Shown here: positions 1-46,010 of the stretch, in pieces
Layout: every line of letters begins with the position of its first letter
Numbering within the stretch: position 1 is the stretch's first letter
Source of the DNA: Ostreococcus lucimarinus
Lineage: Eukaryota
Strand: one strand, 5' to 3'
NCBI GenBank assembly: GCA_000092065.1
Contig: CP000582.1
Length of the DNA stretch: 64,000 nucleotides
Position numbers and translations under genes: made by a program
The notes under the pieces: model-generated
Databases searched by the model: none
What the model saw: the letters and a program-made list of their open reading frames with translations, nothing else
What the model was told of the DNA's origin: nothing

Positions 1-603
1 AGCGATGCATCACATTCTGGATCTTTTCGGTATCCTCCCCGCGTGGTGCGAACACCGATCGTTGAGACCAAACTTAGCAGGTGCGCTTCACTGTACTTCG
101 ACATACGCCCGCTGATAGTACGGGCGTCGGTCTCAAACAATTCAATTTATTTATTGACGAGAAGAGGCGTACACCACGAGTGGGGCGCTACCTATGTCGA
201 CACGCCGTGAGCACGACACAGTTTTGACAGTTCAATTCAAATTTTTGTCACCAGTTTGGCATTTTGAAAAAAGGTTTTTCCGGGTGTTCGGGGAGGGCAG
301 TTATGTTATGAGCGGATGTTTTCACACGCCACCAGGTGAGTTTTGTGGAGCACATTTGTCGAGTTATGACTCAAGAATGACCCCGAGCTATGTACATTCA
401 ATTCTCTTAGACTCCGCGCGTATGAATAAGCACGCACGACATCGACGCGACCTACAAACCCAAGGTTTCTCAAAACCCTGGGTGGTTCCAGTCCAACTGG
501 AGGTCTACGGCGGAAGGGAGGCTGTGAAGACGCGTCAGTCGAATCAGACGAAAGTCAACACGTGCGAGCCGGTAACGATTGACAGGTCGAAAGCATCAAA
601 GCG

Positions 604-2021: not shown

Positions 2022-2549
2022 TCACGTAGCTTCGCGTAATTTTACATGTGTAGCTGAAAGTGCTTGTTCAAAAGCGCTCAGCAGCGAATATAAAGTGAAG
2101 TCCTGTTTCGCCAAATCCACTTCACCCGCCGGAGTCACGAGAAACAAATTACCCAATGTCGATTCGCAAGCCCTCAGCTCTTCTTCATAAGACCGAGCGA
2201 CGCTTTTAAGATAGTCTAGCGGACTTTCATGACATGTTACAGGCACCTTCAAGCTTTGGGATCCCTGTGTTGATAGATGTGAGCGGATGCTCTCGAGGGT
2301 TGCCCATGCTCGTTGAGACCCCTTGCTCTGATGTGCACACCTTTCTACCTGAAGTTGGAGCGCCGTTTCTTTCCTACCTATACATACTTTCGCCGCCGAC
2401 AAAAGACGTCGCGTCAGGTCAAGGGAGTGTTCTAGTTTGGGCACATCAGACGCTGTCGCTCTCCACGAGCACGGATCGAACAAGTTCGCTTGCGCGCTCG
2501 TTCGAGATAATACATCATCCACTTGAGAAACGTAAACCGCGTGTAGCAT
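2022..2549 (-). CDS. Hypothetical protein (175-aa ORF, no recognisable domain)
   Basis: The ORF sits between ATS1 and the tRNA pair. No motif was recognised. Confidence 0.25.
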   Translation of the reverse strand: MLHAVYVSQVDDVLSRTSAQANLFDPCSWRATASDVPKLEHSLDLTRRLLSAAKVCIGRKETALQLQVERCAHQSKGSQRAWATLESIRSHLSTQGSQSLKVPVTCHESPLDYLKSVARSYEEELRACESTLGNLFLVTPAGEVDLAKQDFTLYSLLSAFEQALSATHVKLREAT

Positions 2550-2750: not shown

Positions 2751-2830
2751 TGACACCGGTGGGATTTGAACCCACGCTCTTTCGAACCAGGACCTGAACC
2801 TGGCGCCTTAGACCACTCGGCCACAGTGTC
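2751..2830 (-). tRNA. tRNA-Leu (anticodon CAG), type II with long variable arm, 80 nt
   Basis: The reverse complement is GACACTGTGGCCGAGTGGTCTAAGGCGCCAGGTTCAGGTCCTGGTTCGAAAGAGCGTGGGTTCAAATCCCACCGGTGTCA. It has a 7-bp acceptor stem with one G-U pair, the D-arm GCCGAGTGGTCTAAGGC, the anticodon loop TTCAGGT (CAG, G37), a 12-nt variable arm and the T-arm TGGGTTCAAATCCCA. It closely resembles plant nuclear tRNA-Leu(CAG). Confidence 0.9.
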
Positions 2831-2919
2831 TTTTCGCCACAATGGCGCGGATCGTACAATAAATAGCGCACCGTGCGCGCGATTCATATCTATAGCAGGG
2901 GGTTTTTCGGCGAACAAGC

Positions 2920-2992
2920 GCTCAATTAACTCAGTGGATAGAGTGTCAGCTTCCTAAGCTGAGGGTCGCGGGTTCGATCCCCGTATTGAGTG
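2920..2992 (+). tRNA. tRNA-Arg (anticodon CCT), 73 nt
   Basis: The sequence is GCTCAATTAACTCAGTGGATAGAGTGTCAGCTTCCTAAGCTGAGGGTCGCGGGTTCGATCCCCGTATTGAGTG. The D-arm is ACTC/AGTGGATA/GAGT. The anticodon stem TCAGC/GCTGA carries the loop TTCCTAA (CCT). The T-arm is GCGGG-TTCGATC-CCCGT. The acceptor is GCTCAAT/ATTGAGT with a G1-U72 wobble. It is divergent from tRNA-Leu, 89 bp away. Confidence 0.8.
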
Positions 2993-2995
2993 ACA

Positions 2996-3029
2996 TCTCT
3001 TTCTTTTTTTTTCTTTTTTTTCTTTTTCG
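2996..3029 (+). terminator. T/CT-rich tract (T9, T8, T5 runs) immediately 3' of tRNA-Arg, probably a Pol III terminator
   Basis: The tract reads tctttctttttttttcttttttttctttttc and starts 4 nt after the tRNA 3' end. Confidence 0.55.
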
Positions 3030-3107
3030 TGAAAAATGAAATGGCGACGACTGCGTGGCTGCACTTTCGTCTGGTGCGCTATATTTTGTTATTTATTTCG
3101 CTATTTA

Positions 3108-3238
3108 TCAGTATGTATTACTTTCCAGGCTCTAATGTATGGGGTCTCGATCGCCACGCGCGCGTTGTGGCGTCGTCGCGAGTTATTAGCACTTCGACGG
3201 CGCGCACGTATAAGGCCCGGGAAAGTGATAATGATTAA
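3108..3238 (+). mobile_element. Degenerate copy of a Stowaway-like (Tc1/mariner-type) MITE
   Basis: The left end TCAGTATGTATTACTTTCCAGG is preceded by TA. The interior matches the 29872..30004 copy in reverse complement (ggctctaatgtatggggt... cgagttattagcacttcgacgg). The right TIR is decayed (cgggaaagtgataatgattaa). Confidence 0.7.
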
Positions 3239-3247
3239 CCTGGGTTT

Positions 3248-3390
3248 ATAAGTCGCGATGGATGCCGTGCGTGTTTGTCTGATGCATATTCATACGCGCA
3301 ATAGTCTATATATGTATGCTAGGTCGTGTAGTGTAGATAGACGTTAGCACCACTACAATACAGGATTGTGTTCATCTCCGTTCATCTCCA
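3248..3390 (+). repeat. Promoter-proximal repeat family 'B', copy 1 (about 145 bp), directly upstream of PsaL
   Basis: The 22-mer ATAAGTCGCGATGGATGCCGTG is identical to 6591..6612. The downstream segment tttgtctgatgcatattcatacgcg...agtctatatatgtatg...tcgtgtagtgtagata...ctacaatacaggattgtgttc matches the reverse complement of 26925..27064 with substitutions. Confidence 0.6.
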
Positions 3391-3533: not shown

Positions 3534-4395
3534 ATGATCCGAACCGTGAACGTGTCGCTCGGCGCGCGCGCCATCCTCGAAGGAAAGGTGAGTGTAACGT
3601 GTTCATCGAAAATTTCGTGACTCGTCGTACTTGCGCTTTGTTACACAGCGTTTTACATAGCTCGCACGACACTAACGACGATTCTTTCGCTTGGTTGCCG
3701 CAGTCTTTGCGACATGAGAGACGCTCGCGAGCGCCCGTGAGCGTGACGAATAATTCGCGGTAGGTAGCAAAAAAGATTATTTTCGTCGAGTACCATGTTC
3801 TTCAATCGAACGTCTGGCCTGTTATCACCACCGCGTAAGCGAAACGTTCGAAACTGACCGCGATCACGCGTGCTTTCTTTTCTTTCACAGAAGACGTTCC
3901 GTCGTTTTGGCCTCTTCCGATAAAGTCCAAATCATTAAACCGATCAATGGTGATCCGTTCATTGGTATGCTTGAAACGCCGGTGACTTCATCGCCGGACG
4001 TGGCGAACTTTCTTTCCAATTTGCCTGCTTATCGCACCGGCGTAGCCCCTCTCCTGAGAGGAGTTGAAGTTGGCCTCGCTCACGGCTTCTTCCTTACCGG
4101 ACCTTTCATCAAGCTTGGCCCGCTTCGCTCGACCGATGCGGCTGAGTTGGCGGGTTGCCTGTCTGGTGCTGGCCTTGTGCTTATTTTGACGGCTTGCTTG
4201 AGCATCTATGGAGCGACTGCGTTCCAAAGGGAGGAAGTGGTTGGCTTGAAAACTTTAAGTGGTAGAGCCATCGCTAAAGATCCTTTACAATCATCTGACG
4301 GCTGGGCCTCTTTCACTTCTGGCTGGCTTGTCGGAGGTTTGTCTGGCGTCGCCTGGTCGTATGTTTTGACTCAAGTGTTACCGTACTACTCGTGA
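3534..4395 (+). CDS. psaL: Photosystem I reaction centre subunit XI (PsaL), nuclear-encoded precursor, 2-3 exons
   Basis: The mature region (3891..4395) reads [27 protein letters not shown]...[37 protein letters not shown], the PsaL signature. The acceptor is tttcttttctttcacag at 3889/3890. The proposed exon 1 is ATG 3534..3587 ([18 protein letters not shown]) with a perfect AAG|GTGAGT donor. Phase bookkeeping implies an extra micro-exon at 3791..3834 (acceptor cgag|, donor CGC|GTAAGC). The stop codon TGA is at 4393. Confidence 0.85.
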
Positions 4396-4628: not shown

Positions 4629-6144
4629 TTAAGAAAGCTGAGAGCACTCGCTCGCACCCATGGGGCAAGACACACTCACAATCGAAAGATACTTATGCAA
4701 GATAGAAAGCCGAAAAAAAGTATGATCTTTGTAGTGCATGTAAATTTTTGCCTTTTGCTGTTTTCCGTGCAAGCGCACCTCAGCAACAGGAGCCCATAAA
4801 GCATAAACTGAGAATAGCAGGAAGAAAAGTCTACACGGTATATGAGATGAAGCCATCAAAAGAGAAGAGCAAAGTCGCCCACCCGATTACTAAAGATGCC
4901 CCAACCGTTGGAAGAATGAATACGTGTCTCGTCCTCAGCAAAATGCAACTGATGACAACCAGTCCCCACAAGGCAAATACACCACTCCTGGGAAATCAGT
5001 TGATACTCAAAAAAACTAGGTGTACTTTTCATGTCTCGTACCTTCCGTGATAAATAACTAAAACATGCGGTAAGCTGGCTTTACCATCGCCGTGTAGGAT
5101 AACGAGCGTAGCTAAAAACACTAACACGTAGCTCTCCAATCTGTTCACCACCGATTGAAGATAAGGTGATTTCATGTGGCCTAGTAATTGATAGTAATAT
5201 CTTCGGATAGTATGAACAAACGCTCGTCCCTGTGTGGCGCCTTTGGTCAACTTAGTTACGTAAAATGCCGTTCGAATCACAACCGACAGCTTGTTTGATA
5301 ATTTTGACTTCGACGAACAATATCACGACCAAGATCGTGAAGCAGAACCGCGAGAGTTTAACGGAGATTTTGTTGTTACAAGGTTTACTCATCATTTTTG
5401 AAATATTCTAGCAAAGGAAAACGATCAAACTTGTACTTTTTGTGAACGGCACTCGAGCTCACAAAATTTGGAATTGGGTCCTCCACCACTGTCGAATACC
5501 AAGCAATGAAAAGATGAATCACCGCGTCGTTATCAGAATCGTGTCGTGTGTAATATTGCATCGTGCTCCCTCCAATCACAATCTGTCGGATTCAGAACAA
5601 CTGTCCGTTGGGGATCGTGACAGCTTTTTAACAACTCAAAGTTTCTCGCAGTGCCTATGACCTTTTTTATGAAACCAACCAAATCTACATTGAATGGGTC
5701 GGAGCTCATGCAACTGATAAGTAGCGCACACCTAATTATGTAGAAATCTATGCTATCTTCTCCAAACTTATAGCTACTTAAACTGTAGATCTTCGGCAAA
5801 AGTTCTGTGGTTAGAGTGCAAAAGTTGACTGTTTCAAGAAGTATCAGTTCAAGTTCACCCATCTCGTCGGAGAATTCAACTAGACTTAAGCGACATGGTG
5901 AAAGGTAGAAGGGTAGCGGAGTTGGGTCTTTTGAAACCATTTCAGTGAGTGCGACGTACATTTCGTATAATTTTGTGCAGCAGATAGTTTCGTGCCCGAT
6001 AGCCTTGCTTGCAACGAGAACAGAAGACGCTGTGACTAGTAAAGGACAGTGGGTTACCCATCGTTCGTCGTGTAATCTCCAGAAAAAAGCTGCAGCTGTT
6101 CCAAATAATAGAACTTTTGAGTCAAAGTGCAAGTGAAGGGGCAC
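4629..6144 (-). CDS. Multi-exon gene for an uncharacterised, probably membrane, protein (fragmented ORFs 4629..4859, 5029..5280, 5385..5579, 5533..6144)
   Basis: A run of same-strand ORFs with hydrophobic stretches lies between them. I could not assign a family and the exon boundaries are not resolved. Confidence 0.3.
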
Positions 6145-6590: not shown

Positions 6591-6700
6591 ATAAGTCGCG
6601 ATGGATGCCGTGTTTTAGGGTTTAGGATTTAGTGCTTGTCTGGTAGGTTATGATCACGTACATGATACGGCCGAAGAGTGATTATATATTGCATTGTACA
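6591..6700 (+). repeat. Promoter-proximal repeat family 'B', copy 2 (partial), upstream of the KDEL receptor gene, with an embedded TTTAGGG-type telo-box
   Basis: ATAAGTCGCGATGGATGCCGTG at 6591..6612 is identical to 3248..3269. It is followed by TTTTAGGGTTTAGGATTTAG (6613..6632) and gcttgtctggtaggttatgatcac, which resembles gtttgtctgatgcatattcatac in copy 1. Confidence 0.55.
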
Positions 6701-16879: not shown

Positions 16880-18061
16880 GCTTGACTTTTTAACGCAAAT
16901 GAAGACAGTAAGGCAGAAGATGGACGCCAACAACATAGCACAAATAGCAATCAAAGTTGCCTGTTCGTCAGTGCTAAATTTACTTTGCATCACTTCGCTA
17001 AGTCAACGTACTTGGGTCCGTTTTATCGTGTATTTCTGTTCTATTTGGCTCAAGAGAATTGAGGTTATCGGAGTCAAGACTACCGCAAGCCACACGCGCA
17101 GTGCCTTGGTCACTTGACTTCCGGCCTGTAAGGTACAATTTAAGTTTTAATATGATGATTAATGGGCGATTGATGACCATTCAATGCAGTAACATACCCA
17201 AACAAGCACAGCGACCTCGAGAAAGCGCCCTTGCAAAGTGAGGCTTGACTACAGGAGACATGAGTGATAGAACGCGCGGATCATACAAAAAGCTCACTCT
17301 TTGAAGGCAATAGATGTATGCACAAGTGTAGTAGCACGAGTTCAACGCTCCATAGCTCACCATACCTGCAGGACCAAGGTTTTTCAAGGTTTCTCTTTGC
17401 CTGAGATTTTTTCACCTCGCGAAACGAGCAAGCTAATATCTCATCTTACCGACAAAACCAGCCCGATTCAAGTTTACGTTGAGGACTTTGCGAAAAATTG
17501 TCTTTATCAAGCAAGCGATCTTCTCTAGGGAATGAACCCGCATTGTGCGAGGCACTGGGACGGTGCGGGGCCCTTGGGACTTTTCCACCACTGCTTTTAC
17601 AGACGTTCAGTCGTGTTTTCTTGTAAGCTGACGTCGGCGCACATTGAAACGCTACAGCCCGAGTCACCATTAAGCGGCACACGTTTCGCAAAAATGTGCG
17701 GTTCAAATGCGGCTTAGTACCCGTGGACACAGAGGCGAAAGCTGCTCGTGTTTCGGAAGTGAGTACAGGCCCGCGACAAATGTCACACTGAAGCTAGGAT
17801 GATCTATATATGTCCGTTTATGTCCATGCTTCGAGGAAATCGCCCATGATGCGCAAACATGCATAAATAAGCCGAAATTTCCAGACAGTTCGACAAAAGG
17901 TCACCGTTGGCCTTTCAGCAGTGGGCACAAGAAAATATAACGCATACAGCTATCACTGTCACACTTGGCTCTGCGATTCCGTTTGATGGATGACTTTCCG
18001 CTTGACGCAACGTCGCGCGATGCGACGCAAAAGTTTTTGGAACATTTGACACCTTGAGGCC

Positions 18062-22658: not shown

Positions 22659-22702
22659 GAAGTCGCGTGCGTTTTCGCGGTTAAGTCGCGTGCGTTTTCG
22701 CG
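22659..22702. repeat. Tandem duplication of a 21-bp unit AAGTCGCGTGCGTTTTCGCGG (x2 with a TT spacer), related to the start of promoter repeat 'B'
   Basis: Read directly from the sequence. It shares AAGTCGCG..TGCGTGTTT with 3250..3280. Confidence 0.6.
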
Positions 22703-23375
22703 GCGCGCGATGTCGTCATGATGTCCTATGACATGATCTCACTTCAACTAAATATGAATGATTGGGATGTCACTTCACAAGAAAATCGCATAATAAAGGA
22801 TATCATATAGGGTAAAATTACTTAAACATCGATGCTTAGTTAAATCTAAAATCTAATTTCATCCCGTGGCTCCACTTGTCTCTACATTTTTGCAAAAATC
22901 GCTCGTCGAACGCGTCTCATCGAGAGCGCTCGATCGCCGCTGAGTTTGGCAAAATCCACTATATTCGTGGATTTTCATAAAAATGCGGGTCAGAGGCAAG
23001 ACAAAACAAATCCTACTTAGGTTTTCCTGTGACTACATGATGCTTATTAGCCAAGCGCGCTACGTCTACAGTCTATTTGTCGAAGATTGGAAGATTGAAC
23101 ATTTTGTGTATCGTCATCTCTCAAAAAAATGAACACTATGATGATACACGCTTACACAGATGAAAATGGCGAGTAGCAGTGCGCTACTTAAAAATATCCA
23201 CAGGTACCAAAAGAGAGGCACCGAACTACGAATTTGCGGTTCGCAATTACTTTCAGCAGTATTACTCAAGACTTCTCGAACTCTTCGACGGAATGCTACG
23301 ACGTCAAATTTCTGTCCAAAATTAAGCTGTGCTGCGTTTCCCATTCGCTCAGCGAGCCCAGACACGCGTGCGAGT

Positions 23376-26924: not shown

Positions 26925-27064
26925 CCGAACCCAACCCGTATTATAGCGGCGCTAAAGAGTATGTCTACACTACGAGACTCAAACATACATATAGACTAGA
27001 TATAGACTTGGCGCGTATTCATACGAATAACCATCAGACAAGCGACTTTAAACGCGCGACTTGA
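26925..27064 (-). repeat. Promoter-proximal repeat family 'B', copy 3 (inverted), about 140 bp upstream of the HDAC start codon
   Basis: The reverse complement reads caAGTCGCGcgtttaaagtcgcTTGTCTGATGgttattcgtatgaatacgcg..agtctata..atgtatg..tcgtagtgtagaca..gctataatacgggttgggttc. This is collinear with 3250..3380. Confidence 0.55.
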
Positions 27065-27479
27065 AAACTAAACCAAAAAATACAGCAGGATTCGGCTGGT
27101 GCCGCCGCCGTGCAGCCCACGGAAAAGACGCGCCTATCGAAGCGATGCGTGACGAAGGAAGTGAAGGCGACGTGAAAAGCCAACCAAAATTAGAGAAAAG
27201 GTACACAACTTACGTTCGGTTGTACCGTTTCATTGACGTCCTCTGAAGTTCTCCGAAATCCTCAAAGAGTAGGGCATACTACCTGAAGAAGTGTACGACT
27301 GTAAAAGCTCTGTTCTTCCGCCATTTTACATGAACGTTTTCAGCCGAAATGAAGGTCTTACAGCTCATTGAGAAGTATGAGGTACTCAAAAGCAAAGGTG
27401 CAGTTGACAAATTCCTAGCAAAAAAGCGAAAGAGGCGCGCGACTCGAGGAAGAAAATATGTACCCTCTGTTCCCAAGCG
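27061..27479 (+). CDS. RRP36: Small multi-exon gene for an rRNA-processing RRP36-like protein (not represented by a single ORF in the track)
   Basis: A 5' part reads ...AAHGKDAPIEAMRDEGSEG..KSQPKLEK (the KxAP(V/I)E motif typical of RRP36). The last exon from about 27337 is MKVLQLIEKYEVLKSKGAVDKFLAKKRKRRATRGRKYVPSVPKR* (DUF947 C-terminal motif KY..L...G.L.K.LEKRRKK). The GT-AG boundaries between them are not fully resolved. Confidence 0.5.
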
Positions 27480-29686: not shown

Positions 29687-29871
29687 GAAGGCGTTCCTCG
29701 CTCGTTGTGTCCAGTTTTAAAGCGCTAGAAGTACTAGCTTTTCACAAGCTCCAATATCAATCGAGCGTGCTCGTAACCGGACTCACTCTTTGAGGCTGCG
29801 CGCTGCGAACGAGGCAGCGAGCGGCGTCCGGGGATTGGTTTTTTGTAAAATTTGTTAGGATTGATATGATA

Positions 29872-30004
29872 TCAGTATATATTACTTTCCACGTCCCCAA
29901 TACGTGCGTACCGTCGGAAGTGCTAATAACTCGCGACGACGCCACAACGCGCGCCTGGCGATCGAGAAGTGCTAGCACCCCATACATTAGAGCCTGGAAA
30001 GTAA
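29872..30004. mobile_element. Intact Stowaway-like (Tc1/mariner-type) MITE, 133 bp, with 20-bp TIRs and TA target-site duplication
   Basis: The left TIR is TCAGTATATATTACTTTCCA. The right end tggaaagtaatacatactga is its reverse complement with one mismatch. Flanking TA dinucleotides are at 29870..29871 and 30005..30006. It sits about 190 bp upstream of the PsbP-like gene. Confidence 0.8.
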
Positions 30005-30195
30005 TACATACTGATATCGGATAGATAGATATCCAACGCCAAAAATGTTTTTCTGGCGTTGGCGTGTCGTACTTGTCGCAGCGTTCGCTTTCTCCACGCG
30101 GCGCAAAGCGTGAAGGAAACCTGCAAAGCGTGAAGGAAACCTGCAGACTCGTTCGCCCGCAAGTGTACGTAATCTCGATTGAGATAAGTTGATAC

Positions 30196-34692: not shown

Positions 34693-35082
34693 CCTCTTTC
34701 GCTACAGAACGATTGTCGAACTCGTGTAGGATGGTGTGGTGTATACGCAACAATCTTCCACGGCGTACAGAGGCGTTCAAGAAACGCATTCCAGCGTGCG
34801 TTCTTCCGCGTGTGTTCTGCCGCCGCCGCCTGCCCCTCACCTTCTCCTTTTGACGAACGACATGTGCCATTACCATGTGATATCTGATAGGGTTAATTGT
34901 ATCTGTAATAGTTAAAGTCTTTAAGTGTTGTTGAAATATAGACATCTATATTTGATGTCGAGATATAATACATGATTCCAGAGGACGATGTTCGCGAATA
35001 AAACGACAAAAGGTTTCTCGCCGGCAAACGTAGAAGCCTGGGGCTCACTTCGAGGTTCAAAGCTTCGAAAAGGGTACCGCTC

Positions 35083-44320: not shown

Positions 44321-44538
44321 CAGGACACGACTCGCACCAACCATATCGTGGTAATGCTGAATGATGCTAATTTTGAGCTATCGACGCAAACAACTCTAGA
44401 CCTAAATTTAGTGGTTTACCATCAAATGATCACACACGCCGACGGTACGCAACTTGCTATCGAAACCAAGGTTTCTCTCGTAAGTGTTCTCACAGCAGCG
44501 CCTCCAGCACCGTGCGCTTGCATACGTATCATATCATA

Positions 44539-45957
44539 TGATACTACCTCCATTCGGAAAGTAATGAGAATGAGCCTTGTTATACGCGATGTCACAGGAT
44601 ATCGAGGCGTGCCGTACATGGCTAGAAAGCTGTTGAAATTTCCCGTACGCTGGCGCAAGTTCCCCTGTGTGAATGTGCGTAAAATCGCCGATGCATGATG
44701 ATTTCCATTTTGCTTCATTTACAAAATGATAGGAAAATGCGAAAAAAGTTGCAAAAGTTCGAGAGCGATTTAGCTAAATTTTCACCCCTCTTAGGGTTTT
44801 GTCCTTTTCTCTACGCATGTCCGCCCATCGACGAAGAAACTCTCTACGCGCGTGCTCCGCGCGTCAGCGCGCGCGCGGACGTCACTAATGGACCCGGGGT
44901 GCGACGGAGAGCTCGCACGCTAAGTTTCACATGATTTGGCCGCTTGGTGTGCTAAACCGAGGCACTGAGCGCCGAGGGAGCGACGAGGAGCGCACGCCAT
45001 CAAGTTCGAATCGCGCGCGTCGACGGACGAAGTTGGAGGTTCACGGCGACGCGCGTACGCGACCGAAGAGCGCGAGGCTGCGGAAGCGTAAGGAAACACC
45101 CTCGCGCATAGTTCCCGGCCCTCTGTTGAGTCCGTTCAAGGCTCCAAGCGGCGTGCGCGCGCGCGATGGACGGGAACTGAGCGACACGGAGAGAGCCGCT
45201 TTCGCGAAGTGCATGCACTTTGCGACGCGTTGCGGACAAGCCTCGGTAGCAGACGTATGCAAGGAATGGGGAATAAGCAAGTCTCATGGATACAAGATCT
45301 TAAATCGGTGGCGAACGGAGGAGAGCGTCCAGTCTCGACCCAGAAGTGGGCGCCCACGCGCATTGACGGAGGAGGACATGCACACGCTCGAGTGCCTGTC
45401 GGAAGAGCTCAAAGGTTACTTCACGTGGGAATCGCTGGCGAAGCGGTTCACGGAAAAAACAGGTAAGCGCGTGTCGTGTACAGCTGTGTATAGTTCTTGT
45501 AAATCAGCCGGCTGGCGCCAAGTGTGCGAGCGTTATGTACCTTGCCTCAGCGCAACAGACGTGGCGAGAAGATTGGAGCAATACCATGAATACCATGACC
45601 GCGAGAGACTTGAGAGGTGCTGGGATGTCAAAACCGCAGTCACTAAATGCATCCTCGACGCCAACGGAACGAACGATTACAAGCTACCGCACGGTATCAA
45701 GCACGAGGAACCCATTTTTGTCGATATTTTCTTAGATTCGGACGATACAGACGATCCGGTGGCGCGCACTTTGGACTACGAAGGTCTGCATGCCTCACTC
45801 CCTTCTTCTCTCCCACGATAAATTTATGTTGCAAAAGTTGCGACCCCCTCGATTTTCCTCGAGTTGTAACTCAAGAAAAAAAACGCGGAAAAAAGACCCC
45901 CTCACGATTTCACGAATCACGAACCGTCTCATTACTTTCCGAATGGAGGTAGTATCA
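44539..45957. mobile_element. Tc1/mariner-like DNA transposon remnant: 31-bp inverted repeats flanking an ORF that encodes only the paired-type HTH DNA-binding domain (no DDE domain)
   Basis: Perfect inverted repeats sit at 44539..44569 (tgATACTACCTCCATTCGGAAAGTAATGAGa) and 45927..45957. There is a TA at 44537..44538. The internal ORF 44931..45821 contains CKEWGISKSHGYKILNRW ... SGRPRALTEEDMHTLECL ... GKRVSCTAVYSSCKSAGWR, the Tc1-type bipartite HTH. The TIRs share ATTACTTTCC with the MITE TIRs. Confidence 0.6.
44931..45821 (+). pseudogene. Truncated Tc1/mariner-type transposase gene (HTH domains only, catalytic DDE region absent)
   Basis: See the element above. The 296 aa have a basic, low-complexity N-terminus followed by two HTH units. 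No D..D..E triad is visible. Confidence 0.5.
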
Positions 45958-46010
45958 GTATATATTACTTGCCACGTCCCTAATACGTGCGTGCCATCGG
46001 AAGTGCGTAC
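45955..46010 (+). mobile_element. Truncated copy (5' 56 bp) of the Stowaway-like MITE, abutting the right inverted repeat of the Tc1-like remnant
   Basis: tcagtatatattacttgccacgtccctaatacgtgcgtgccatcggaagtgcgtac matches 29872..29928 (tcagtatatattactttccacgtccccaatacgtgcgtaccgtcggaagtgct). Confidence 0.6.

What the first reader, a model, noticed from the sequence alone, without database searches (positions are those of the whole stretch)
3248..3390. Promoter-proximal repeat family 'B' found 140-300 bp upstream of three unrelated genes in gene orientation
About 140-bp related sequences occur at 3248..3390 (upstream of PsaL), 6591..6700 (upstream of the KDEL receptor, partial) and 26925..27064 (inverted, upstream of the minus-strand HDAC). 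A tandem partial at 22659..22702 is also related. Shared blocks are AAGTCGCG ... TTGTCTGATG ... AGTCTATATATGTATG ... TCGTGTAGTGTAGA ... CTACAATACAGG. The 22-mer ATAAGTCGCGATGGATGCCGTG is identical in two copies. Each copy is in the same orientation as the downstream gene. This suggests either a gene-proximal MITE/SINE or a co-opted promoter/5'UTR module.
Basis: seen in the sequence. Interest (0 to 1): 0.55.

Follow-up and report, generated by a model that had tools for sequence, protein, structure and literature searches.

The report
Short dispersed repeat in Ostreococcus intergenic DNA
The finding is a real ~146-bp repeat scattered through the low-GC part of chromosome 2 of the tiny green alga Ostreococcus lucimarinus, and it looks like decaying copies of a small mobile element that sit near gene starts because this compact genome has little other non-coding space, not like a shared promoter module.

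Summary
The window is Ostreococcus lucimarinus CCE9901, on an 895-kb chromosome, in DNA of about 46% GC. The similarity is real. Copy A (3231-3375, +) and copy C (27083-26925, -) align over about 147 columns at 69% identity (BLAST E 4e-8). The copy at 6591 shares an exact 22-mer plus a weak extension. The 22659-22702 "partial" is not related.

I found two more degenerate copies in the window: D (473-408, -) and H (44478-44375, -). A metagenome scan gave further loci (E, F, G). These define a discrete 146-nt unit, TTGAGAAACCTTGGG...GGATTGGGTTCAT, whose copies are 65-99% identical to the consensus.

- **RNA:** no Rfam hit, no stable fold and no covariation.
- **Transposon class:** no terminal inverted repeats or target-site duplications were found, so the class is unassigned.
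- **Orientation rule:** it fails. Most copies lie in divergent intergenic regions, where the rule holds automatically. Among the informative cases, 3 are co-oriented with the downstream gene and 3 are not.
- **Other species:** the PsaL and HDAC loci of other Ostreococcus species lack the element. A sister lineage has differently placed or oriented copies, while the 95 nt next to the aconitase ATG stay conserved.

Best reading: relics of a small non-autonomous interspersed repeat. Interest is low to moderate.

The parts
3231..3375 (+). Copy A: full-length copy, 87% identical to the 146-nt consensus. It ends 158 nt upstream of the PsaL ATG (3534). A fragment of another MITE-like element (3104-3195) and tRNA-Arg (2919-2994) lie upstream of it.
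   Evidence: boundaries from the alignment with E/F copies
6591..6658 (+). Copy B: fragment. It consists of the exact 22-mer (6591-6612), a 21-nt telomere-like insertion (6614-6632), then a weakly similar TTGTCTG... stretch. It lies 320-390 nt upstream of the KDEL-receptor ATG (6979), in a divergent intergenic region.
   Evidence: (profile E 0.006)
26925..27083 (-). Copy C: full-length but old copy, 71% identical to the consensus, with internal duplications and indels. It lies between the MCM3-like stop (27563) and the HDAC ATG (26730), co-oriented with both.
408..473 (-). Copy D: 5' part of the element (consensus 1-78 with an 11-nt deletion, 77% identical; weaker similarity continues to about 379). 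It lies in the divergent TIMELESS (ATG 104, -) / GPAT (ORF start 604; the start called in the metagenome contigs is at 643, +) intergenic region.
44375..44478 (-). Copy H: degenerate 5' part (consensus 3-91, 65% identical). It lies just past the stop (44320) of the + strand THO2 gene and next to a 1.4-kb inverted-repeat transposon relic. It is not upstream of any co-oriented gene.

Best explanation
The sequences are copies, of different ages and states of decay, of a short (about 146 nt) non-coding interspersed repeat. The consensus is TTGAGAAACCTTGGGTTTATAAGTCGCGATGGATGCCGTGCGTGCTTGTCCGATGCTTATTCATACGCGCTAAGTCTATATGTAGGTCTAGGTCATGTAGTGTAGACATAGGCGTTAGCACCACTATAATACGGGATTGGGTTCAT. The copies populate the low-GC region of Ostreococcus lucimarinus chromosome 2 and of its closest relatives.

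Most likely it is, or was, a non-autonomous mobile element. It would have been copied as a unit into the few long intergenic spacers that this very compact genome tolerates. After that it drifted, was truncated (mostly keeping the 5' 45-90 nt) and was hit by further insertions.

Its position 150-300 bp upstream of start codons follows from where non-coding DNA exists in such a genome, not from a function in transcription.

Shown: homology, unit boundaries, dispersal, the age spectrum, lack of conservation at orthologous promoters, and lack of RNA structure. Inferred: mobility and the way it is copied. No transposase-recognisable termini or target duplications were found.
For: 1. **Organism and setting.** The GPAT (604-1893) and the neighbouring 175-aa protein are exact matches to O. 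lucimarinus CCE9901 proteins on an 895,087-bp record. Window GC is 42-53%. Loci carrying the repeat have 46-49% GC.
2. **Discrete unit.** Loci E, F and G match A only over 3237-3375, at 85-88%, with unrelated flanks and the same 5' start (TTGAGAAACC) and 3' end (GGGTTCAT).
3. **Age spectrum typical of a repeat family.** Identity to the consensus is E 99, F 95-96, G 88, A 87, D 77, I 72, C 71, J 67 and H 65%.
4. **Same chromosome.** The helicase at locus E is 100% identical to the CCE9901 protein XP_001416184 on the same 895-kb record.
5. **Company of other transposon relics.**
   - A sits 45 nt from a fragment of an element that has 24-nt inverted termini (full copy at 29868-30018).
   - E sits beside a terminus of that same element.
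   - H sits beside a 1.4-kb element with 31-nt inverted termini and an ORF carrying only HTH_29/HTH_32 domains.
6. **Turnover after lineage split.** In a sister lineage (95% nt identity in the 3' 300 nt of the helicase coding sequence), the helicase-aconitase spacer has an old + strand copy (J). Its left flank and first ~15-20 nt are orthologous to a 15-nt stub in O. lucimarinus. The near-intact minus-strand copy E is present only in O. lucimarinus.
7. **No orthologous conservation.** PsaL and HDAC loci of O. tauri and other Ostreococcus species carry no copy. In the lineage with 92.8% identical HDAC, the upstream DNA is unalignable from the ATG on, and its own copy I lies 1.25 kb away in antisense.
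8. **Not an RNA gene.** No Rfam hit. Fold z-scores are +0.75, +1.07, +1.14 and -1.56. Covariation terms are -0.19 and +1.39.
Against: - No terminal inverted repeats, target-site duplications, poly(A)/simple-repeat tail, Pol III boxes or primer-binding site were found by inspecting the flanks of five to six copies. The element therefore fits no transposon class, and transposition is inferred, not shown.
- No clean 'empty site' was obtained. The E/J comparison is a complex rearrangement, not a simple presence/absence.
- Truncated copies keep the 5' end, the opposite of what retroposition usually gives.
- The 5' ~45 nt are more conserved than the rest. E and F differ at 0 of 39 unascertained 5' positions against 8 of 86 3' positions (my count on the, 45 alignments).
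- An exact 22-mer survives in the otherwise decayed copy B. This could mean a constrained motif.
- A recent survey describes O. lucimarinus outlier regions as largely lacking transposable elements (bioRxiv 10.1101/2025.04.21.649811).
- Genome-wide copy number and distribution could not be measured.
Confidence: 0.65

Rival explanations
1. Co-opted cis-regulatory cassette. The element, whatever its origin, supplies promoter or 5'-UTR sequence (for example its TATA-like TTTATAAG and CTATAATAC motifs, or the conserved 5' 45 nt as a factor-binding site) to the gene downstream of it.
For: - A, B, C, D and F lie 150-370 nt upstream of a co-oriented ATG.
- The 5' 45 nt and the 22-mer are unusually well kept.
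- The outlier region is reported to be transcriptionally hyperactive (bioRxiv 10.1101/2025.04.21.649811).
Against: - Four of those five copies are in divergent protein-gene spacers, where co-orientation with some gene is automatic.
- E is antisense to aconitase, H faces the 3' end of THO2, and I is antisense and 1.25 kb away.
- The served genes are functionally unrelated.
- Orthologous PsaL and HDAC promoters in other species lack the element.
- Between sister lineages the 95 nt next to the aconitase ATG are about 89% identical (243-nt BLAST segment spanning them), while the repeat part is scrambled.
- The TATAAT-like motif is TACAAT in A and F.
- The E, F and G copies were found through the 20-mer, so its conservation in them is ascertainment.
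Confidence: 0.12
2. Dispersal without transposition. Pieces of intergenic DNA were copied between spacers of the outlier region by ectopic repair, gene conversion or small segmental duplications during the frequent rearrangements of this chromosome region.
For: - No target-site duplications or recognisable termini.
- The E locus shows a complex fold-back/rearranged structure with a perfect 40-nt palindrome.
- Synteny and spacers in this region turn over fast between lineages.
Against: The same sharp 5' and 3' boundaries recur at independent loci with unrelated flanks (A, E, F; the 5' boundary also in D, G, H and J). This is expected for a unit that is mobilised as such and not for random patch copying.
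Confidence: 0.15
3. A family of genes for a roughly 140-nt non-coding RNA, such as the medium-sized ncRNAs described in O. tauri. Under this reading each copy is its own transcription unit.
For: - Size, multiple copies, intergenic position and conserved 5' part.
- Multi-copy and tRNA-associated medium-sized ncRNAs exist in O. tauri (bioRxiv 10.64898/2026.07.10.737489).
- Copy A lies 240 nt downstream of tRNA-Arg on the same strand.
Against: - No Rfam family hit, even at E<=10.
- The fold is no more stable than shuffles.
- No compensatory support: covariation -0.19 and +1.39 kcal/mol.
- Copies range down to 65% identity with large indels and truncations.
- A T-rich run directly after tRNA-Arg (2995-3030) would end Pol III read-through.
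Confidence: 0.05
4. Chance similarity of AT/CG-patterned intergenic DNA.
For: The 22659-22702 'copy' and the bare 8-mer AAGTCGCG are at chance level.
Against: - A-C has E 4e-8.
- Profile hits range from 1e-15 to 1e-51.
- Independent loci share identical boundaries.
Confidence: 0.01

Closest known systems
MITEs (miniature inverted-repeat transposable elements) and other short non-autonomous DNA elements
   Same: - Size of about 150 nt with no coding capacity.
- Dispersed copies with discrete ends.
- Clustering in gene-proximal non-coding DNA.
- Co-occurrence with Tc1/mariner-like relics and with a genuine MITE-like element (24-nt inverted termini, 29868-30018).
   Different: - No terminal inverted repeat. 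The 5' TTGAGAAACCTTGGG and the reverse complement of the 3' end, ATGAACCCAATCC, are only vaguely alike.
- No target-site duplication at A, E or F.
- The 5' terminal 14-mer recurs inside a palindromic fragment attached to the other element's terminus at locus E. This hints at a relationship but does not prove one.
SINEs / tRNA-derived retroposons
   Same: - Length and dispersal.
- Loose resemblance of the 3' half (GTAGTGTAGA ... TTAGCA ... GGGTTCAT) to tRNA A-box, anticodon-loop and B-box spacing. This rests on my own reading and is not statistically supported.
   Different: - No tRNA or SINE covariance-model hit.
- The tRNA-like part would be at the 3' end, not at the head.
- No A-rich or simple-repeat tail and no target duplication.
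- Truncated copies keep the 5' end.
Solo LTRs / TRIM terminal repeats
   Same: The unit starts with TG and ends with CA, and is within the size range of the shortest LTRs.
   Different: - No 4-6-bp target duplication.
- No paired direct copies flanking a PBS/PPT-bearing core.
- TRIMs were reported as not found in O. lucimarinus (PMC4717578).
Plant telo-box / promoter-proximal repeated motifs
   Same: GGGTTTA and TTGGGTT motifs lie at the ends of the element. A true TTAGGGTTT sits in copy B and in the flank of G.
   Different: - Only 2 exact telo-boxes occur in 64 kb.
- The motif in copy B is an insertion absent from the other copies.
- There is no association with a gene class.

Membership tests
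MITE | Terminal inverted repeats | tested here: not met
   The repeat finder and direct comparison of the consensus ends show no convincing inverted termini. By contrast, the neighbouring element at 29868-30018 has 24-nt termini that are 96% complementary.
MITE | Target-site duplication flanking each copy | tested here: not met
   The flanks of A, E and F (both sides) and of D, G and H (5' side) show no shared 2-10-nt duplication. Older copies may have lost one, but E and F are 94-95% identical to each other (96-99% to the consensus).
MITE | Short (<800 bp), non-coding, multiple dispersed copies | tested here: met
   The unit is 146 nt. There are 5 copies in the window plus loci E, F, G, I and J elsewhere.
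SINE | Pol III-type head (tRNA-, 7SL- or 5S-derived) | tested here: not met
   Rfam at E<=10 on A and C gives no tRNA, 7SL or 5S hit. ARAGORN finds only the two genuine tRNA genes.
SINE | A-rich or simple-repeat 3' tail and target duplication | tested here: not met
   The 3' end is GGGTTCAT followed by unrelated sequence.
Solo LTR / TRIM | TG...CA ends with a 4-6-bp target duplication | tested here: not met
   The ends TG...CA are present, but the 5-nt flanks differ: E has TAAAT/TTCTC, F has GTTAT/TTACA, A has GATAA/TCTCC.
Structured non-coding RNA family | Match to a curated family, or a thermodynamically stable and covarying structure | tested here: not met
   Rfam gathering and E-value searches, fold z-scores of +0.75 to -1.56, and alignment folding with no covariation support.
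Conserved promoter module | Presence at orthologous promoters in related species, with slower divergence than the flanks | tested here: not met
   The element is absent from PsaL and HDAC loci of other Ostreococcus species. It is rearranged or non-orthologous in sister lineages, while the proximal 95 nt of the aconitase promoter region are conserved.
Conserved promoter module | Transcription start or regulatory activity inside the element | not testable with these tools
   No transcript 5' ends were available. The only spliced PsaL sequence recovered (P0026) starts inside exon 2.

The most novel reading that the evidence does not exclude
The element could be a mobile promoter/regulatory cassette, or a lineage-specific ~140-nt RNA gene, that spreads within the low-GC outlier region. 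Its conserved 5' 45 nt, including the invariant 22-mer, would act as a binding site or processed product, contributing to the unusual transcriptional activity of that region.
Probability: 0.1. Interest if true: 0.55.

Novelty: new member of a known kind. Interest (0 to 1): 0.25.

Why it matters
O. lucimarinus is often described as nearly free of transposable elements, even in its low-GC outlier chromosome region. A catalogue based on protein-coding transposons would miss short repeats like this one and like the neighbouring inverted-repeat element.

Knowing the 146-nt consensus would allow three things:
- a proper genome-wide census;
- better masking in promoter-motif searches, because shared 'motifs' upstream of unrelated genes may be repeat relics;
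- use of insertions as markers of the fast structural turnover of this region between closely related populations.

It does not by itself reveal a new regulatory mechanism.

Tried and rejected
1. **22659-22702 as a family member: rejected.** It is a 2 x 23-nt tandem sharing only AAGTCGCG.
2. **Structured RNA: rejected.** Rfam gathering and permissive searches, single-sequence folds on both strands and alignment folds were all negative.
3. **Telo-box idea: rejected.** Only two exact TTAGGGTTT occur in the window, one of them as an insertion in copy B. The terminal motif TTGGGTTYAT does not occur elsewhere.
4. **Viral origin: rejected.** The 20-mer gives no hit in IMG/VR. 17-18-mers from the consensus hit seven low-GC viral contigs, but only over the seed word (profile E > 0.1).
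5. **L025 (66% GC): rejected.** It carries only the 20-mer and is best taken as a chance or coding match.
6. **Transcript 5' ends: led nowhere.**
   - The spliced PsaL protein I reconstructed is not in the collection.
   - The other full-length PsaL sequences belong to other species.
   - The Logan contigs over GPAT are colinear with the genome and uninformative.
7. **Clean empty site: not obtained.** All O. lucimarinus-like metagenome contigs carry A, B, D, E and F. The reference-genome record could not be fetched for the helicase.
8. **Classes with defined ends: no fit.** Solo-LTR, Helitron-like and MITE termini and target duplications were inspected by eye on the alignments, and none fits.
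9. **Palenik et al. 2007** (the genome paper) is not held in the library.

Full report
**Source of the window.** The 429-aa acyltransferase at 604-1893 and the 175-aa protein at 2022-2549 (-) are exact matches to Ostreococcus lucimarinus CCE9901 proteins XP_001416149 and XP_001416391, on a record of 895,087 bp. GC content across the window is 42-53%, mostly about 46%. From general knowledge of this genome (about 60% GC overall), that places the window in the low-GC 'big outlier' region of chromosome 2. I could not verify the chromosome number with the tools.

- PsaL: PF02605.
- KDEL receptor: PF00810.
- HDAC: PF00850.

**Checking the observation.**
- *A and C.* Copy A and copy C are truly homologous. 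blastn within the window gives E 4e-8 and 1.9e-9, and Smith-Waterman gives 147 columns at 69% identity with several indels.
- *The 22-mer.* It is identical at 3248-3269 and 6591-6612. About 2e-4 such coincidences are expected in 64 kb (my arithmetic).
- *The rest of the 6591 copy.* It does not align pairwise. A profile built from other members extends the match to 6658 at E 0.006. By eye, the 22-mer is followed by a 21-nt telomere-like insertion and then GCTTGTCTGGTAGG..., which resembles C.
- *The 22659-22702 'tandem partial'.* It is not a member. It is two copies of a 23-mer sharing only AAGTCGCG, and its best alignment to the consensus is matched by 98 of 300 shuffles.

- Four are the same locus as the window, at 99.7-99.9% identity.
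- One (L025, 66% GC) has only the 20-mer.
- The rest define three new loci:
  - E (L022, L027);
  - F (L016, L018, L021, L023, L024, L028);
  - G (L019, a 5' part only).

E and F match A only over 3237-3375, at 85-88% identity. Their flanks are unrelated and they share identical ends, which defines a 146-nt unit running from TTGAGAAACCTTGGG to GGATTGGGTTCAT. Locus E is on the same chromosome of the same species, because its DEAD-box helicase is 100% identical to the CCE9901 protein on the 895-kb record.

Two further diverged copies turned up in sister lineages: I (L047) and J (L048-L051). Identity to the consensus is E 99, F 95-96, G 88, A 87, D 77, I 72, C 71, J 67 and H 65%. That is the spread expected of a repeat family with old and young members. 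All loci carrying the repeat have 46-49% GC.

**What it is not.**
- *Not a known or structured RNA.* Rfam finds only the two tRNA genes in the window (tRNA-Leu at 2751-2830, minus; tRNA-Arg at 2919-2994, plus) and nothing in the repeat, even at E<=10. Folds of A and C on either strand are no more stable than shuffles (z = +0.75, +1.07, +1.14, -1.56). Alignment folding of six copies gives covariation terms of -0.19 and +1.39 kcal/mol.
- *Not viral.* IMG/VR hits match the seed word only.
- *Not a classifiable transposon.* I found no terminal inverted repeats, no target-site duplication at A, E or F, no A-rich tail and no Pol III head. The ends are TG...CA, but there is no 4-6-bp duplication. TRIMs were reported absent from this species (PMC4717578).

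**Context and the orientation claim.**

| Copy | Position | Relation to neighbouring genes |
|---|---|---|
| A | 3231-3375 (+) | Ends 158 nt before the PsaL ATG at 3534. A spliced JGI sequence, P0026, supports exons 3534-3587, 3704-3759 and 3891-4395. Upstream lie a minus-strand protein gene and two tRNA genes. |
| B | 6591-6658 (+) | Between a minus-strand ORF (5533-6144) and the plus-strand KDEL receptor gene. |
| C | 27083-26925 (-) | Between the MCM3-like stop (27563) and the HDAC ATG (26730), all on the minus strand. |
| D | 473-408 (-) | Between TIMELESS (minus; ATG at 104, known from the metagenome contigs) and GPAT (plus). |
| F | locus L024 | Between an ELO elongase gene (minus) and a plus-strand gene. 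|

B, D and F, and A with respect to protein-coding genes, therefore sit in divergent spacers. There, any orientation is 'upstream and co-oriented' with one neighbour.

The informative cases split evenly:
- In sense: A (relative to tRNA-Arg and PsaL), C, and a 50-nt 3' fragment E' upstream of aconitase.
- Not in sense: E is antisense to aconitase. H points into the 3' end of THO2. I is antisense, 1.25 kb from HDAC.

The orientation rule is therefore not supported. Proximity to start codons is what one expects where nearly all non-coding DNA is promoter-adjacent.

**Comparative test of a promoter role.**
- PsaL loci of other Ostreococcus species (proteins 94-96% identical) have different neighbours and no copy of the element.
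- The same holds for HDAC loci of O. tauri and another species.
- In the lineage whose HDAC gene is 92.8% identical at the DNA level, similarity to the window stops at the ATG.
- In a sister lineage that keeps the helicase-aconitase order:
  - the 95 nt before the aconitase ATG are about 89% identical (243-nt BLAST segment spanning them);
  - the spacer further upstream is scrambled;
  - the sister has an old plus-strand copy (J), whose left flank and first ~15-20 nt correspond to a 15-nt stub in O. lucimarinus;
  - the near-intact minus-strand copy E, together with a terminus of another element, is found only in O. lucimarinus.

This shows turnover, and gain of a young copy, after the lineages split. 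It also shows that the functionally constrained promoter-proximal DNA is not the repeat.

**Company it keeps.**
- A lies 45 nt from a 90-nt fragment (3104-3195) of a 151-nt element with 24-nt inverted termini (29868-30018; another piece at 45953-46006).
- E lies 22 nt from a terminus of that same element. This terminus is fused to a perfect 40-nt palindrome that contains the repeat's own 5' 14-mer.
- H abuts a 1.4-kb element with 31-nt inverted termini (44539-45957). Its 296-aa ORF has only HTH_29/HTH_32 domains, which I read as a transposase N-terminus relic.

[quoted passage not shown] Short non-coding relics such as these would escape a protein-based census.

**Interpretation.** The best-supported reading (about 0.65) is a small non-autonomous interspersed repeat. 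Its copies accumulate and decay in the few long spacers of the low-GC region.

Points that keep other readings alive:
- no diagnostic termini or target duplications;
- preferential retention and higher conservation of the 5' 45 nt;
- an exact 22-mer surviving in the otherwise decayed copy B.

I give about 0.15 to copying by repair or rearrangement instead of transposition, 0.12 to a co-opted regulatory cassette, and 0.05 to an RNA gene family.

**Verdict.** Interest is low to moderate.

Noticed in passing
window 29868-30018; partial copies at 3104-3195 (inverted, 98-100%) and 45953-46006: A 151-nt MITE-like element with 24-nt terminal inverted repeats (GATATCAGTATATATTACTTTCCA). A terminus of it also lies next to repeat copy E in L022/L036.
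   Followed up: partly
window 44539-45957: A 1.4-kb element bounded by perfect 31-nt inverted repeats (TGATACTACCTCCATTCGGAAAGTAATGAGA). It contains a 296-aa ORF (44931-45821) with only HTH_29/HTH_32 domains and no DDE domain. It looks like a decayed Tc1/mariner-type transposon in a species said to be transposon-poor.
   Followed up: partly
window 2751-2830 (-) and 2919-2994 (+): A divergent pair of tRNA genes, Leu(CAG) and Arg(CCT), 90 nt apart. tRNA-Arg is followed by a 35-nt T-rich run (2995-3030).
   Followed up: no
window 3534-4395: The deposited PsaL model (P0027) uses a middle exon that disagrees with a spliced environmental sequence (P0026). The latter supports exons 3534-3587, 3704-3759 and 3891-4395, giving a more plausible Ser/Arg-rich transit peptide.
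   Followed up: partly
window 6614-6632: A telomere-type repeat, TTTAGGG TTTAGGA TTTAG, is inserted inside repeat copy B. A similar TTTTAGGGTTTTG lies about 75 nt beyond the truncated copy G (L019). Only one other exact TTAGGGTTT occurs in the window (44791).
   Followed up: partly
window 22660-22703: A perfect 2 x 23-nt tandem, AAGTCGCGTGCGTTTTCGCGG(TT). It is unrelated to the repeat family beyond an 8-mer.
   Followed up: yes
window 3370-3389: A tandem duplication, GTTCATCTCC x2, lies exactly at the 3' end of copy A. Metagenome versions of this locus differ from the window by two small gaps within copy A.
   Followed up: no
L036 11389-11428 (= L022 338-377): A perfect 17+17-nt palindrome, GAAACCTTGGGGCGTGG TT CCACGCCCCAAGGTTTC. 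It starts with the repeat's own 5' terminal 14-mer and is fused to a terminus of the MITE-like element. It may be a fold-back repair scar or a sign that the two families share termini.
   Followed up: partly
L037 10118-10209 vs L048 5860-5950: A block of about 95 nt immediately upstream of the aconitase ATG is conserved between sister lineages, while the rest of the spacer is scrambled. It is a candidate core promoter/5' UTR.
   Followed up: no
window 17373-17395 (-), 35007-35019 (-): There are extra near-matches to the repeat's 5' terminal motif GAGAAACCTTGGG: 6 within 2 mismatches against 1.2 expected. One is a tandem GAGAAACCTTGAAAAACCTTGG. No further family similarity was detected around them.
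   Followed up: partly
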